A stretch of DNA of 64,000 bases from a virus. The position numbers were made by a program, and so were the translations under genes. Under the pieces are notes generated by a model. The model saw only the letters and a program-made list of their open reading frames with translations. It had not been told where the DNA came from and ran no database searches. Numbering within the stretch: position 1 is the first letter of the stretch; each line of letters opens with the position of its first letter. The stretch spans positions 4,766 to 68,765 of the IMG/VR virus record IMGVR_UViG_3300032144_000385. One strand, 5' to 3'. This document shows, piece by piece, positions 31,002 through 60,157 of this stretch.

Positions 31002-31541
31002 TCAGTCCGTGACCTTCGCCACGCGGAACACCCGCGCGCCGAAGAGTTCGAGGGGGATGGCCTCGCCGTTCTCGACGGCGCGGCGGATGTAGGCCTTCAG
31101 CTGGCCGGTGTGCACCTCGGCGGCCTCGCGGACGGCGCCGGGGAAGTCGACCCCGAGGCGGTCGGCGAGCGCGTGCGCGCGCTCCTGCTGGCCGGGGCCG
31201 ACGGCGACCTCGACCGAGCGCTTGACGAGGCCCCCCTGGCCGTGGTCCTCGAGCCAGGCGTAGGCGGCGCCGCGCTGGTGCACCGGCGGCTGCTTCACCT
31301 GGATCGCGGGCTCCACCACGACGGAGCGGCCGTCGCGGAGGCGGAACTCGGCGAGGCCGGCCTCGTCCATGGCCTCGGGCAGGCGGCGCTCGACGATCTC
31401 CCGGAGGCGGTCGGCGGCGGCCTGGGACTCGAGCGCCAGGCGCGCGACGTCCGCCTCCGCCGTCCGCATCTCCTCGCCGAGGGCGAGGATCCGCTCGAGA
31501 CGGTCGGAGGCGGGCGCGCGGGGGGAAGGAGAGTCGTTCAC
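31002..31541 (-). CDS. conserved phage replication-module protein (coiled coil + alpha/beta)
   Basis: LPEAMDEAG...WLED.G.GGLVK...VH..QLKAY.R...E.G..IP.ELF. Confidence 0.75.
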   Translation of the reverse strand: MNDSPSPRAPASDRLERILALGEEMRTAEADVARLALESQAAADRLREIVERRLPEAMDEAGLAEFRLRDGRSVVVEPAIQVKQPPVHQRGAAYAWLEDHGQGGLVKRSVEVAVGPGQQERAHALADRLGVDFPGAVREAAEVHTGQLKAYIRRAVENGEAIPLELFGARVFRVAKVTD

Positions 31542-31807
31542 GGCTTGTAGACCCCGTGGTGCAGCCGGCGGGCCGCGCCGGCGAGATCCGAGGGGGTCAG
31601 CTCCAGGATGCGCTCGATCTGACCGTGGAAGCGACCGGATTCGGTGACCGGGTGCACCGATCCGGACTCGGCGCGGTACGACAGCTCGTGGAGCCGAACG
31701 AGCTCCGCGCCCGTCAGGACCAAGGTGAAGCGGTCCTCCGTGAGGAGCTTCTCGAAGGGACCGTAGTCCTTTTTCTTGACGGGGGGCTCGGTGTTCGCGA
31801 TGTGCAT
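31538..31807 (-). CDS. hypothetical protein
   Basis: Track ORF with ATG and RBS (AAGGAA). Confidence 0.65.
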   Translation of the reverse strand: MHIANTEPPVKKKDYGPFEKLLTEDRFTLVLTGAELVRLHELSYRAESGSVHPVTESGRFHGQIERILELTPSDLAGAARRLHHGVYKP

Positions 31808-31826
31808 GGGTGTTCCTTGTGATAGA

Positions 31827-31917
31827 CGAGCCGGGACAGGAGTCGAACCTGCGACCGCGGCGGGATGGTTTCGAACCTCTCCCGTGCTCCGCCGCTCTTC
31901 CGTTGAGCTACCGGCTC
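31827..31917 (-). ncRNA. atypical tRNA-like RNA (about 91 nt) with an extended anticodon arm
   Basis: GAGCCGG/CCGGCTC acceptor stem, TA-GCTC-AACGGAA-GAGC D arm, GCAGG-TTCGACT-CCTGT T arm; about 36-nt hairpin in place of the 17-nt anticodon arm; no encoded CCA. Confidence 0.8.
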
Positions 31918-31921
31918 GCCA

Positions 31922-33421
31922 CTATCCTACCCGGGGATCGCGATCGAGCGAGAGCCACTCCCGCATTTCGTCGCCCTGGACCTGGGCCGCGATCTCGCGC
32001 TTCGACGCAAGTGCCCGCAGGATAGCGAGATCCAGCGTCGGCTCGTCGCCGTCCATGGCCACGAGGTCGACGATCTGCACGCTCTTCCGCTGCCCGATCC
32101 GGTGCGCCCGGTCCTCGGCCTGGAGGCGCTCGGCGAGCTTGTGGGACGTGTTGTAGAACACCTCCGCGCCGGCCTCGTTCAGGGTCAGCCCCGTGCCGCC
32201 CTTGGACGGGTTCGACACGAAGAACCGGGCGCGGCCCGCGCGGAAGTCCTCGACCGCGGCGCGCGCCTCGTCCTCGGAGCACGCGCCGTCGTAGCGCGCG
32301 GCGGTCTCGCCGGCGGCGGCCAGGGCCGCCAGGATGTCGCCGACGTCCCGGCGGAAGCGGCACCAGACGATCGCCTGGCCCTCGATCCCCTCGAGCGTGC
32401 GGAGCAGGGCGTCGAGCCGGGGGTTGTCGTCCCCGACCCGGAGCTCGGCGCGCTCGCCGTCCTCGCCGGGGAGGTCGGAGGGCGCGTAGCCCGAGGTGAC
32501 CTGCTGCATCCGGAGGAGGCGCGTGATCACGAGCTGGGCCGTCACGGTCTCCCCGCCGGCGAGCACGGTCATGGCCTCGTCGCGGAGCTCGCGGTAGGCC
32601 CGGCGCTGCGCGGGCGAGAGCTCGAAGTACACGCGCCGGTAGGTCTTCGGGGGCAGCTCCGGCAGGACGTCGGCCTTGCGAACGCGCGAGGTCAGGGAGT
32701 CCACGACCGAGCGCATGGCCTCGAGGTTGCGGTAGCCGAGGAGCGCCGGGTAGGAGTGGCCGTTCGCGTAGCGGTCCTCCCAGCGGCCGAACGCCGCCTT
32801 GAACGCGAAGAACGAGCCGCAGCCCACGGCGCGCCAGGCGTCGGGGTCCAGGAACCGGAGCTGCGCGTAGACGTCGAACGGACGGTCCGGGACGATCGTC
32901 CCGGTGGCGATCCGCCGGTAGGGGGCGTGCGCGGCCAGGGCGAGGCAGCGCTTGGTCCGGCGCGCGTCGGGGGACTTCAGCATCTGCGACTCGTCCGCCG
33001 CCGCGAGGGCGGGGCCCCCGTCGAGGAACCGGCGCACGAACTTGGCGCAGTCCTCGGTCATGAGGGCGTCGTAGGAGACGCACAGGCAGAGGAGCGGGCG
33101 CTCGGCCGCGGGGGCGAGGAAGGCGGCGCGCGCGGCCTCGGCGCGCCTGGTGCGCGCGGAGGCGGTGCTCCAGCAGTGGATCCGGCGCGGGAGGTCGTCC
33201 GGAAGGTGCTTGGGCAGCTCGTCCTGCGCCCAGGCGCGGTGCACCCCGTTCGGGGCTAGGGCGAGGAAGCGGTCGATCCGGGCGCCGCGGAACAGGTACG
33301 CGGCGTCCGCCACGATCCCGGCGGTCTTGCCGCAGCCCATCTCCCAGCAGTAGCCCCACGCGCGCGCGTCGCGGTGGGCCAGGTGCTCGGCGAGCTGGAA
33401 GGGGTAGAGCTCGGTCGCCAC
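31922..33421 (-). CDS. SNF2-family (SF2) helicase
   Basis: EMGCGKT, ADESQ, TGT, QVTSG, VWCRF, G.GLTL, YN, QAEDRAHRIGQ. Confidence 0.96.
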   Translation of the reverse strand: MATELYPFQLAEHLAHRDARAWGYCWEMGCGKTAGIVADAAYLFRGARIDRFLALAPNGVHRAWAQDELPKHLPDDLPRRIHCWSTASARTRRAEAARAAFLAPAAERPLLCLCVSYDALMTEDCAKFVRRFLDGGPALAAADESQMLKSPDARRTKRCLALAAHAPYRRIATGTIVPDRPFDVYAQLRFLDPDAWRAVGCGSFFAFKAAFGRWEDRYANGHSYPALLGYRNLEAMRSVVDSLTSRVRKADVLPELPPKTYRRVYFELSPAQRRAYRELRDEAMTVLAGGETVTAQLVITRLLRMQQVTSGYAPSDLPGEDGERAELRVGDDNPRLDALLRTLEGIEGQAIVWCRFRRDVGDILAALAAAGETAARYDGACSEDEARAAVEDFRAGRARFFVSNPSKGGTGLTLNEAGAEVFYNTSHKLAERLQAEDRAHRIGQRKSVQIVDLVAMDGDEPTLDLAILRALASKREIAAQVQGDEMREWLSLDRDPRVG

Positions 33422-33454
33422 GGGGTCCTGGGAGCATACCCGCCCCCGGGGATG

Positions 33455-33493
33455 AAAAGGACGCCCCGCCGGCGAAAACCCGGCGGGGCGTCC
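33455..33493 (-). terminator. Rho-independent terminator ending the morphogenesis/lysis transcript
   Basis: 14-bp perfect stem GGACGCCCCGCCGG/CCGGCGGGGCGTCC, 7-nt loop, followed by TTTT on the minus strand. Confidence 0.85.
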
Positions 33494-33544
33494 AGGGCCG
33501 CCCCTCCCCCTTGGGCAGGCCCCTAGTCTACACGGGCGCGCGCC

Positions 33545-59584: not shown

Positions 59585-60157
59585 TCAGGCCGAGGGCGAG
59601 GTCGTGTTGATAACGATCGTCGTCGCGCCCTCGGCGGACGAGGACGACACGTACCCGGAGGTCGCCACGGTCTCGGGCCGCGAGTGCATCGCGCCCATGG
59701 CGCGCAGCACGTCGCCGGCGGCCGTGTAGAGCTTGCCCTTGGACATGCTGCGGAACGCGGAGGCGTACAGCGAGCGCTTGCGCCGGCTCGAGAGCGCGGC
59801 GACCGCCTCGAGCGCGAGGGCGCCGAGGCCGTAGGGCAGGAGGCCGGCGAGCGGCTCCGCCTGGCGGCGCGCGGCGCGCTCCTCGAGGCCGGCGAGCGCC
59901 TCCTCCGCGCCCGCGAGGCGGCGGTTCGCGGCGGCGAGCGCCTCCGCGGCGGGGAGGTCGTCGGACGGGTCGGGGCTCTGGGCGGCGGACTCGACCTGGC
60001 CCTCCGCCGCGGAGACCGCGGCCTGGGCCGCCGCCTCCTCCGCGAGCTGGCGGTCGTACTCCGGCAGGGCCTCGGGCGTGCTGGACGCGACGGCCTGGCG
60101 GTCGACGGCGCATCCGGGGAGCAGGGCGAGGACGAGGGCGGCGATGAAGGGGCGCAT
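59585..60157 (-). CDS. predicted lipoprotein with coiled coil
   Basis: MRPFIAALVLALLPGC lipobox; heptad-rich middle. Confidence 0.7.
   Translation of the reverse strand: MRPFIAALVLALLPGCAVDRQAVASSTPEALPEYDRQLAEEAAAQAAVSAAEGQVESAAQSPDPSDDLPAAEALAAANRRLAGAEEALAGLEERAARRQAEPLAGLLPYGLGALALEAVAALSSRRKRSLYASAFRSMSKGKLYTAAGDVLRAMGAMHSRPETVATSGYVSSSSAEGATTIVINTTSPSA

What the first reader, a model, noticed from the sequence alone, without database searches (positions are those of the whole stretch)
31827..31930. tRNA mimic with a doubled-length anticodon arm capped by a second T-loop-like/CGA loop
Sequence (minus strand): canonical acceptor (extendable to 10 bp, one extra C before the 3' strand), D arm and T arm. 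The anticodon arm is GCGG-[AGCA bulge]-CGGGA-[GA/A]-GG-TTCGAAA-CC...TCCCG-CCGC. The apical loop TTCGAAA can be read as a U33-type anticodon loop with CGA (Ser) or as a second T-loop. There is no Ser-type long variable arm and no encoded CCA. A TAGGAT -10-like box (31924-31929) lies 6 nt upstream of the 5' end, suggesting its own transcript. Inference: not a normal decoding tRNA; possibly a decoy for anticodon nucleases or tRNA sensors of anti-phage systems, a ribosome/EF-Tu/synthetase-binding mimic, an intron-containing tRNA, or an RNase P/Z processing signal.
Basis: partly seen in the sequence, partly recalled or inferred. Interest (0 to 1): 0.8.

Follow-up and report, generated by a model that had tools for sequence, protein, structure and literature searches.

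The report
Non-decoding tRNA-shaped phage leader RNA
A soil phage carries a tRNA-shaped RNA that cannot read codons and sits at the predicted start of an early transcript; two related phages have similar anticodon-less tRNA look-alikes behind their promoters, which suggests a small, undescribed family whose function is untested.

Summary
Window 31827-31917 (minus strand) has a tRNA acceptor stem, D arm and T arm with the usual tertiary-contact bases (Rfam tRNA 30.5 bits, just over threshold). A 28-nt insert roughly doubles the anticodon arm. One extra C lies at the T/acceptor junction, and no CCA is encoded. ARAGORN rejects it at default settings.

The window is a 70.7-kb, 72% GC soil siphophage distantly related to YuA and Pam3. 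The element lies between the SNF2 helicase gene and an orphan 89-aa gene.

New here:
- **Promoter.** The TAGGAT box is conserved in relatives. In two of them it lies 6 nt before a leaderless ATG, so transcription here should start at tRNA position 1.
- **Relatives.** Two of 11 relatives (L223, L224) carry tRNA-like elements just after a TAnnnT box. Their anticodon arm is only 4 bp plus a 4-5-nt loop. No clade member has a canonical tRNA.
- **The long arm.** It is not conserved, and its tip looks like a partial copy of the element's own T arm.

Best reading: a non-decoding tRNA-shaped leader that works through its acceptor/T/D half, in processing or stability, or as an excised stable RNA. A decoy role or simple decay remain possible; an intron-containing tRNA is very unlikely. 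No RNA data exist. The scan has noted anticodon-less phage tRNA look-alikes before, on other DNA.

The parts
31924..31929 (-). TAGGAT, a -10-like promoter hexamer. Its last T is the first base of the helicase TAG stop codon.
   Evidence: Single TAGGATA in the window. The motif is conserved at the helicase 3' end in L002, L007, L008, L224 and L226, independent of the stop-codon frame. It lies 6 nt before the leaderless ATG of the DUF7307 gene in L008 and L224. 19 sites share GG(G/A)-TAnnnT.
31827..31917 (-). tRNA-shaped element, from G1 (31917) to discriminator G (31827). Predicted transcript start at G1.
   Evidence: Rfam tRNA 30.5 bits; cloverleaf MFE fold; arm-by-arm parse.
31861..31888 (-). 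28-nt insert that extends the anticodon arm: AGCA bulge, 5-bp helix, GA/A internal loop, and a GG-TTCGAAA-CC tip.
   Evidence: Rfam alignment shows a 28-nt local insert where the model has 9 positions. The tip is 10/12 identical to the element's own T arm. It shares the 8-mer AGGTTCGA, reached by 407 of 20000 shuffles.
31835..31835 (-). Extra C between the T stem and the acceptor 3' strand (equivalently, a bulged U in the T stem).
   Evidence: It is absent from L223 and L224.
31808..31826 (-). Single-stranded trailer, UCUAUCACAAGGAACACCC, with the AAGGA ribosome-binding site of orf89. No terminator.
   Evidence: The terminator scan finds none between the element and orf89.
31538..31807 (-). 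orf89, an orphan 89-aa gene co-transcribed downstream. Like the tRNA-like element, it is absent from this slot in relatives.
   Evidence: GC3 0.90. No close homolog. Only weak small-protein matches. Relatives go from helicase to DUF7307 directly or with other small genes.
31922..33421 (-). SNF2-family helicase gene upstream. Read-through from its promoter would put a 5' leader on the element.
   Evidence: Pfam SNF2-rel_dom and Helicase_C; PHROG 62.

Best explanation
The element is a tRNA-derived, non-decoding RNA module at the 5' end of the orf89-DUF7307-gp34 transcript.

**Shown by sequence.**
- It has an intact acceptor stem, D arm and T arm, with the elbow bases.
- It has no usable anticodon stem-loop and no CCA.
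- It has no terminator of its own.
- A conserved -10 box lies 6 nt upstream.

**Shown by comparison.**
- Two related phages carry tRNA-shaped elements in the same promoter-proximal layout, with only a mini-hairpin in place of the anticodon arm.
- Other relatives have unrelated stable stem-loops in this leader slot.

**Inferred mechanism.**
- The RNA works through its acceptor/T/D half, which is the part that RNase P, RNase Z and the CCA-adding enzyme recognise.
- On the short transcript that starts at G1, it would form a compact, base-paired 5' end. This would either protect the mRNA or be cut off after G73 by RNase Z or RNase E.
- On read-through transcripts from the helicase promoter, RNase P could cut at G1. 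That would separate the helicase mRNA from the downstream genes.
- Either route would release a stable RNA of about 90 nt, much like an engineered tRNA scaffold.
- The long arm is a tolerated, lineage-specific insertion, probably a partial T-arm duplication. It is not a decoding or splicing device.
For: - tRNA body and tertiary bases are present.
- It cannot decode. ARAGORN finds nothing at default settings. The anticodon arm holds 36 nt where 17 are expected, and there is an extra C at the T/acceptor junction.
- The promoter is supported. The TAGGAT motif is conserved independent of reading frame, and TAGGAT + 6 nt + ATG gives leaderless DUF7307 genes in L008 and L224. 19 sites share GG(G/A)-TAnnnT. 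The window has five leaderless candidates.
- No terminator lies before orf89.
- L223 1419-1485 scores 37.9 bits against Rfam tRNA (E = 6e-5) and 34 bits against my model R1. L224 1389-1492 scores 24 bits against R1. Both start 7-9 nt after TATCAT or TAGACT and end 10-17 nt before the helicase GTG. Their anticodon-arm regions are 11-12 nt.
- Acceptor pairs 2-6 and T-stem pairs 2-3 differ among the three elements. All but one (C-U at acceptor pair 4 in L223) keep pairing.
- No canonical tRNA was found in any of the 11 relatives with DNA.
- Non-tRNA structured leaders with long closing stems occupy the same slot in L002, L007 and L301.
- Engineered tRNA scaffolds, with the anticodon stem-loop replaced by a hairpin, are processed and stable in E. 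coli (PMC3753655).
Against: - There is no expression data at all. Only one DNA run holds this phage.
- The family has only three members. They lie on different sides of the helicase gene, so they could be independent tRNA captures rather than descendants of one element.
- The shared D arm is generic among phage tRNAs (74 IMG/VR loci), so it does not prove common descent.
- Fold-energy z-scores are weak: -2.05 for the window, -1.3 for L223 and +0.2 for L224.
- The extra C at the T/acceptor junction could weaken recognition by tRNA-processing enzymes.
- If transcription starts at G1, the 10-14-bp extended acceptor stem exists only on read-through RNA.
- Eight of 11 relatives manage without any tRNA-like element.
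Confidence: 0.45

Rival explanations
1. A trans-acting decoy or sponge. The excised tRNA-shaped RNA titrates a host or rival-phage factor that binds the tRNA body, such as an acceptor-end-modifying toxin, a tRNA nuclease, a modification enzyme or a tRNA sensor. Because it has no anticodon loop, it is not cut and not used in translation.
For: - The elbow and acceptor features are kept while the anticodon arm is free to vary in all three elements.
- It sits in a hypervariable accessory-gene slot that holds 0-4 small orphan genes in relatives.
- Many other phage contigs carry tRNA-like genes with short or absent anticodon arms. At least one (L311/L315) appears from its flanking sequence to have its own promoter-like box and terminator hairpin.
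- Phage tRNAs are known to counter tRNA-targeting defences (PMC11464382, PMC10264068, PMC11555353; seen in the hit list, not read).
Against: - No defence-related or tRNA-related gene was identified next to it.
- orf89 is uninformative.
- Known counter-defence phage tRNAs are functional, decoding tRNAs.
- Relatives fill the same slot with plain hairpins.
- Nothing shows that the RNA is excised or abundant.
Confidence: 0.2
2. A decaying pseudo-tRNA. A once-functional phage or host tRNA gene was disabled by a slippage or duplication insert in the anticodon arm and a 1-nt indel. It persists only because it is recent, or because any stable hairpin is tolerated in this leader.
For: - It is a singleton. 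No copy was found in viral, metagenome or genome collections, and only one sequencing run holds the phage.
- The insert tip resembles the element's own T arm, as a replication error would produce.
- The extra C is a lesion at a normally invariant junction.
- The long arm is not conserved in L223 or L224.
Against: - All tertiary-contact bases and all four helices are intact.
- The insert forms a helix that continues the anticodon stem rather than disrupting the fold.
- Two relatives at about 57% helicase identity, where neutral DNA would be randomised, also have clean cloverleaf bodies without anticodon loops.
- No clade member keeps a functional tRNA that could be the parent.
- All three start at a fixed distance from a -10 box.
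Confidence: 0.2
3. A structured cis-regulatory leader that only happens to be tRNA-derived. Examples would be a promoter-proximal antitermination RNA of the HK022 put type, or an operator bound by a phage protein such as orf89. In this reading the tRNA shape is incidental.
For: - It sits at the 5' end of a multi-gene early transcript.
- Relatives have other strongly folded leaders with long closing stems in the same slot.
- The element and orf89 are both unique to this phage.
Against: - There is no sequence or structure similarity among the leaders of different relatives, which a polymerase-binding RNA would need.
- Nothing links orf89 to RNA binding.
- It does not explain why a full tRNA elbow is kept in three phages.
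Confidence: 0.1
4. A decoding tRNA after all. Either tRNA-Ser(CGA) reads through the TTCGAAA loop at the end of a long arm, or tRNA-Val(CAC) has an 18-nt intron at position 37/38 that is spliced out.
For: - The apical loop has U33-like and A37-like positions.
- ARAGORN, with introns allowed and the score threshold lowered to 98%, calls tRNA-Val(CAC) with an 18-nt intron at the canonical site.
- UCG and GUG are common codons in this phage.
Against: - The arm is about 11 bp with two irregularities, instead of 5 bp. By established tRNA geometry, the loop therefore lies far from the decoding distance.
- There is no long variable arm for Ser identity.
- The Val reading has G33, a 6-nt variable region and no position 26.
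- The fold has its bulges on the wrong strands for a bulge-helix-bulge.
- 28 nt is far too short for a group I intron, and Rfam finds none.
- The phage has no RtcB, RNA ligase or CCA-adding enzyme.
- The related elements have 11-12-nt arms that cannot decode.
Confidence: 0.03

Closest known systems
Canonical phage-encoded tRNA genes (Rfam RF00005)
   Same: 7-bp acceptor stem, U8, a 4-bp D stem with A14/G18G19/A21, a T arm with G53-C61 and a UUCGA loop. The D arm is identical to that of many phage tRNAs.
   Different: No 5-bp stem plus 7-nt anticodon loop. There is a 28-nt insert, an extra base at the T/acceptor junction and no CCA. It is fused to an mRNA. ARAGORN rejects it.
Engineered tRNA scaffold chimeras (Ponchon and Dardel; PMC3753655)
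   Same: The same architecture: acceptor, T and D arms are kept, and the anticodon stem-loop is replaced by a foreign hairpin. Such RNAs are recognised, processed and stabilised by E. coli tRNA machinery.
   Different: Those are man-made and end in a terminator. This one is natural, sits at the start of an mRNA, and its processing is untested.
mascRNA and menRNA of MALAT1/MEN-beta, and other tRNA-like processing signals
   Same: A tRNA-like fold without a working anticodon, embedded in a longer transcript. RNase P and RNase Z use it to make RNA ends. An extended acceptor stem made by leader-trailer pairing matters there (PMC8457004), and such pairing is also possible here.
   Different: Those are eukaryotic and lie at the 3' end of a long non-coding RNA. 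There is no sequence relationship. Cleavage is unproven here.
Bacillus cereus pseudo-tRNA, tRNA-Other (PMC3399842)
   Same: A bacterial tRNA-like element that does not function in translation and is expressed as part of larger RNAs with a regulatory role.
   Different: It is chromosomal, keeps a normal-length anticodon arm, and is not promoter-proximal in a phage operon.
YrlA / bacterial Y RNA tRNA-like module, and the tmRNA tRNA-like domain
   Same: Non-decoding tRNA mimics that keep the T arm, the acceptor stem and, in YrlA, the D arm.
   Different: YrlA is circularly permuted: its ends lie in the anticodon-stem position and its acceptor stem is closed. tmRNA lacks a full D arm and carries a coding region. 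Neither is detected here (Rfam; ARAGORN tmRNA mode). The YrlA and tmRNA descriptions rest on my own knowledge.
Anticodon-less tRNA-like modules noted earlier by this scan (e1-3299259, e1-185656)
   Same: Phage tRNA-shaped elements whose anticodon arms are replaced, collapsed or missing.
   Different: They are on other genomes, in tRNA clusters or after an exonuclease gene. No sequence look-alike of this element is on record. Those notes are unchecked.

Membership tests
Decoding tRNA (RF00005) | Cloverleaf with a 7-bp acceptor stem, D arm, T arm and conserved tertiary bases (U8, A14, G18G19, A21, G53-C61, U54-A58) | tested here: met
   Rfam 30.5 bits against a gathering score of 29; MFE cloverleaf; arm parse.
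Decoding tRNA (RF00005) | 5-bp anticodon stem and 7-nt loop with U33, at a fixed distance from the elbow | tested here: not met
   36 nt where 17 are expected. ARAGORN default finds 0 genes. The relaxed intron reading has G33.
Decoding tRNA (RF00005) | Uninterrupted stacking of the T stem on the acceptor stem (no base between positions 65 and 66) | tested here: not met
   Extra C at 31835.
Decoding tRNA (RF00005) | Aminoacylation and a 3' CCA | not testable with these tools
   No CCA is encoded; the 3' flank is GTCTATC. The phage has no CCA-adding enzyme, but a host enzyme could add CCA.
Intron-containing tRNA (archaeal bulge-helix-bulge type) | Two 3-nt bulges on opposite strands, separated by a 4-bp helix, at the splice sites | tested here: not met
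   The fold has a 4-nt 5'-strand bulge, then 5 bp, then a GA/A internal loop. The bulges are on the wrong strands and of the wrong sizes.
Intron-containing tRNA (bacterial group I type) | A group I intron of about 200 nt or more in the anticodon loop | tested here: not met
   The insert is 28 nt, and there is no Rfam group I hit in the window.
Intron-containing tRNA (any type) | An RNA ligase or splicing enzyme is available | tested here: inconclusive
   No RtcB or RNA_ligase family match in the phage genome. The host is unknown.
tRNA-like processing or stability elements within longer RNAs (mascRNA type, tRNA-Other type) | A tRNA-like acceptor/T/D fold without a working anticodon | tested here: met
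   The same holds for L223 and L224.
tRNA-like processing or stability elements within longer RNAs (mascRNA type, tRNA-Other type) | Embedded in a longer transcript, with no terminator of its own | tested here: met
   No terminator lies between the element and orf89. It starts 6 nt after a conserved -10 box. This is sequence inference, not RNA data.
tRNA-like processing or stability elements within longer RNAs (mascRNA type, tRNA-Other type) | Cleavage by RNase P and/or RNase Z in vivo | not testable with these tools
   No RNA run holds this phage.
YrlA / Y RNA | Permuted tRNA-like module plus a Ro-binding stem; a match to the Rfam model | tested here: not met
   No Rfam match other than tRNA. 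The ends lie in the acceptor stem, not in the anticodon stem.
tmRNA | tRNA-like domain plus a tag reading frame | tested here: not met
   ARAGORN finds no tmRNA in the window or in the whole genome.

The most novel reading that the evidence does not exclude
This phage clade starts some early transcripts exactly at nucleotide 1 of a tRNA-shaped fold that has no anticodon. This would be a tRNA cap on the mRNA. It would be selected for its acceptor/T/D half, and its anticodon arm would be free to shrink to a tetraloop hairpin or grow into a second T-loop arm. The module would either shield the 5' end from 5'-end-dependent decay, or be excised to give a stable, non-cleavable tRNA mimic that titrates host factors binding the tRNA elbow or acceptor end, such as defence toxins. 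It would be one instance of a wider, undescribed class of anticodon-less tRNA look-alikes in phages.
Probability: 0.2. Interest if true: 0.8.

Novelty: new variant of a known kind. Interest (0 to 1): 0.55.

Why it matters
Non-decoding tRNA look-alikes are known in plant RNA viruses, mammalian long non-coding RNAs, bacterial Y RNAs and one Bacillus pseudo-tRNA. In the papers I could search, I found no description of anticodon-less tRNA-shaped modules placed at the transcript start of DNA-phage operons.

If such RNAs are real and processed, they would show phages using the host tRNA-maturation machinery to shape or stabilise mRNAs, or to make stable decoy RNAs. That bears on the current question of how phages cope with defences that target tRNA.

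There is also a practical point. Standard tRNA finders miss these elements, and genome annotation leaves them as empty intergenic space.

Tried and rejected
**Searches for copies of the element**
- Exact and degenerate DNA patterns in viral contigs and metagenome contigs found none. The hits were neighbouring tRNAs in phage tRNA arrays, or unrelated odd tRNA-likes.
- My model R1, run over about 100 loci of related and unrelated phages, found only ordinary tRNAs plus L223 and L224.

**Search for a parent tRNA**
- Genome contigs gave no clear parent. The body is generic. The best matches are Met, Ile and Lys tRNAs at similar scores.

**Expression**
- No RNA holder is listed. Only one DNA run, the probable source, holds the stretch.

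**Readings considered and rejected**
- attP or integration remnant: the element has both tRNA halves, and I saw no integrase gene near it.
- Excision that would leave a leaderless mRNA (an idea from note e1-1107461): 9-20 nt would remain before the start codon in all three elements.
- MITE-like insertion with a TA duplication at a GATATC site (compare L008 with the window and L002): possible at the DNA level, but there is a single copy per genome and no transposase. I left it as a note.

**orf89**
- No Pfam or PHROG match.
- No close homolog.
- Atlas and profile searches gave only weak small-protein matches. This says nothing about the element.

**Cultured relatives**
- None has a helicase more than 40% identical. 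The host remains unknown.

**Other relatives**
- Look-ups for P0007 and P0027 returned no DNA.
Full report
**What is there.**
On the minus strand, 31917-31827 reads as a tRNA body. It has:
- a 7-bp acceptor stem (GAGCCGG/CCGGCTC), then U8 and A9;
- a D arm, GCTC-AACGGAA-GAGC;
- a 4-nt variable loop, GGTC;
- a T arm, GCAGG-TTCGACT-CCTGT;
- a discriminator G.

The bases that build the tRNA elbow are all present: A14, G18, G19, A21, G53-C61 and U54/A58.

Three features are not tRNA-like.
- Where a 17-nt anticodon stem-loop should be, there are 36 nt. These fold as GCGG/CCGC, a 4-nt bulge, CGGGA/UCCCG, a GA/A internal loop, and a GG-UUCGAAA-CC tip.
- One extra C (31835) lies between the T stem and the acceptor stem.
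- No CCA follows the discriminator.

Rfam's tRNA model matches at 30.5 bits (threshold 29, E = 0.023), with a 28-nt local insert. It is the only Rfam match in the 64 kb. ARAGORN finds no tRNA or tmRNA in the window or the whole 70.7-kb genome. With introns allowed and the score threshold lowered to 98%, it calls tRNA-Val(CAC) with an 18-nt intron at 37/38. That reading has G33 and an irregular variable region.

**Context.**
The window is most of an IMG/VR virus record of 70,718 bp and 72% GC, from a soil metagenome. Gene content marks a siphophage distantly related to Pseudomonas YuA-like phages and cyanophage Pam3. No cultured phage has a helicase more than 40% identical.

On the minus strand the order is:
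- tail protein, small lysis-region genes and a strong terminator (33493-33459);
- SNF2 helicase (33421-31922);
- the element;
- an orphan 89-aa gene (31807-31538; GC3 0.90, so probably real);
- DUF7307, Pam3_gp34-like and a Dda-like helicase.

No terminator separates the element from orf89.

**The promoter.**
TAGGAT (31929-31924) overlaps the helicase stop codon. I fetched 11 relatives whose helicases are 49-61% identical (L002, L007, L008, L009, L223-L226, L301, L303, L305).
- TAGGAT(A) recurs at the helicase 3' end in L002, L007, L008, L224 and L226, in different positions relative to the stop codon. It is therefore not conserved as coding sequence.
- In L008 and L224 it lies exactly 6 nt before the ATG of the DUF7307 gene. 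That is the layout of a leaderless mRNA.
- Nineteen such sites in this clade share GG(G/A)-TAnnnT and have no obvious -35 element.
- The window has five more genes with a TAnnnT box 5-8 nt before the ATG.

With the same 6-nt spacing, transcription in the window should begin at G1 of the tRNA-like fold (31917). This is an inference from sequence, because no RNA data exist. Only one DNA run holds this phage.

**Relatives.**
The slot between the helicase and DUF7307 is hypervariable.
- In L008, L224, L303 and L305, DUF7307 starts within 10 nt of the helicase stop or overlaps it.
- L009 has a short, weakly folded 49-nt gap.
- L002, L007 and L301 have unrelated stable stem-loops with long closing stems.
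- L223, L225 and L226 have two to four small orphan genes there.

None of them has a copy of the window's element there.

A covariance model of the element (R1) found tRNA-shaped elements in two relatives, just upstream of the helicase start.
- L223 1419-1485 scores 34 bits with R1 and 37.9 bits against Rfam tRNA (E = 6e-5).
- L224 1389-1492 scores 24 bits with R1.

Both fold as cloverleaves. L223 has the same D arm as the window element, and its anticodon arm is only 4 bp plus a 5-nt loop. L224 has a 41-nt hairpin inserted in the D loop, and its anticodon arm is GCGA-CGCU-UCGC. The base of that stem matches the window's GCGG/CCGC with a compensated change.

Both elements begin 7-9 nt after a TAnnnT box (TATCAT, TAGACT) and end 10-17 nt before the helicase GTG. 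Both lack CCA. Across the three elements, acceptor pairs 2-6 and T-stem pairs 2-3 differ. All but one (C-U at acceptor pair 4 in L223) keep pairing. No canonical tRNA was found in any clade member.

**The long arm.**
It is the least conserved part, being absent from L223 and L224. Its tip, AGGTTCGAAACC, matches the element's own T arm, AGGTTCGACTCC, at 10 of 12 positions and shares an exact 8-mer. Only 2% of shuffled inserts reach that. A partial T-arm duplication is the simplest origin.

The arm is not an archaeal-type intron, because the bulges are on the wrong strands and of the wrong sizes. It is far too short for a group I intron. The phage encodes no RtcB, RNA ligase or CCA-adding enzyme. 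An anticodon-like loop at the end of an 11-bp irregular arm cannot sit at the decoding distance from the elbow. That last point rests on established tRNA geometry, not on a test here.

**Wider picture.**
- The D arm sequence is common in phage tRNAs of many specificities, so no parent tRNA can be named.
- Pattern scans of IMG/VR also turned up dozens of phage tRNA-like genes with short, absent or odd anticodon arms, not related to this one in the arm.
- Earlier notes of this scan describe similar anticodon-less modules on other phages. These notes are unchecked.
- In the papers I could search, phage tRNA-like structures are mentioned only in general terms (PMC10690425).
- The closest described precedents are engineered tRNA scaffolds (PMC3753655), mascRNA (PMC8457004) and B. 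cereus tRNA-Other (PMC3399842).

**Interpretation.**
The pattern is a conserved acceptor/T/D half, an unconstrained anticodon arm, a fixed position just after a promoter, and no terminator. This fits a role that depends on the upper half of the tRNA shape. That is the part read by RNase P, RNase Z and the CCA-adding enzyme.

I commit to a non-decoding tRNA-shaped leader that serves mRNA end formation or stability and may be released as a stable small RNA (0.45). The rivals are:
- a trans-acting decoy (0.2);
- a decaying pseudo-tRNA (0.2);
- an incidental tRNA-derived regulatory leader (0.1);
- a decoding tRNA (0.03).

The main weaknesses are the lack of any RNA evidence and a family of only three members. 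Those three may be independent captures rather than descendants of one element.

Noticed in passing
window 33452-33530 (-); also L223 about 1312-1390, and L002, L008, L009, L225, L301, L303 upstream of the helicase gene: Between the lysis-region genes and the helicase gene, most relatives with DNA there share three things in order: a TAGACT/TAGAAT/TAGGAT box, a hairpin whose loop reads GGGGGAGGG, and then a strong rho-independent terminator. This looks like a small RNA gene of about 70 nt. The helicase leaders downstream are C-rich (for example CACUCCCCC in L223) and could pair with that G-rich loop.
   Followed up: partly
window 31922-31541 slot; L223 3016-4455, L225 3025-4027, L226 3016-3983: The slot between the helicase and DUF7307 genes is a hotspot for accessory genes. 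It holds 0-4 unrelated small orphan genes, or structured leaders, in different relatives.
   Followed up: partly
window minus strand, ATGs at 60157, 23132, 12206, 10207, 3870: Five genes have a TAnnnT box 5-8 nt before the ATG, so they are probably leaderless mRNAs. Nineteen clade promoter-like sites share GG(G/A)-TAnnnT with no -35. This resembles hosts that use -10-only promoters, and the host is unknown.
   Followed up: partly
window 31918-31930 and 31821-31828; L002 4493-4565; L008 4016-4030: Compared with the empty site GGATATCGGC in L008, the inserts in the window and in L002 are flanked by GGATA...TATC. Both begin TGG(C/T)G(A/C)GC and end with its complement. This could be a hairpin-shaped insertion at a GATATC palindrome with a TA duplication.
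   Followed up: no
L234, L251, L259, L292 (IMG/VR contigs of about 40 kb, 63% GC): Four contigs share an 86-nt tRNA-like element. It has the same D arm and a 14-nt-longer, hairpin-containing anticodon region. It lies about 30 nt upstream of a gene with a ribosome-binding site. It may be another leader-type tRNA look-alike.
   Followed up: no
L311 and L315 around 516-590; L314, L322, L324, L328: These are tRNA-like genes with 6-16 nt in place of the anticodon arm. The L311/L315 copy appears to have its own promoter-like box and terminator hairpin, so it may be a stand-alone small RNA gene.
   Followed up: no
L175 1010-1076 (Patescibacteria single-cell genome): A bacterial tRNA-like gene with the same D and T arms and a 35-nt irregular arm in place of the anticodon stem-loop.
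   Followed up: no
L350, L417, L438: Phage tRNA-like genes with two consecutive anticodon-type hairpins (UAU-like and GAU-like loops).
   Followed up: no
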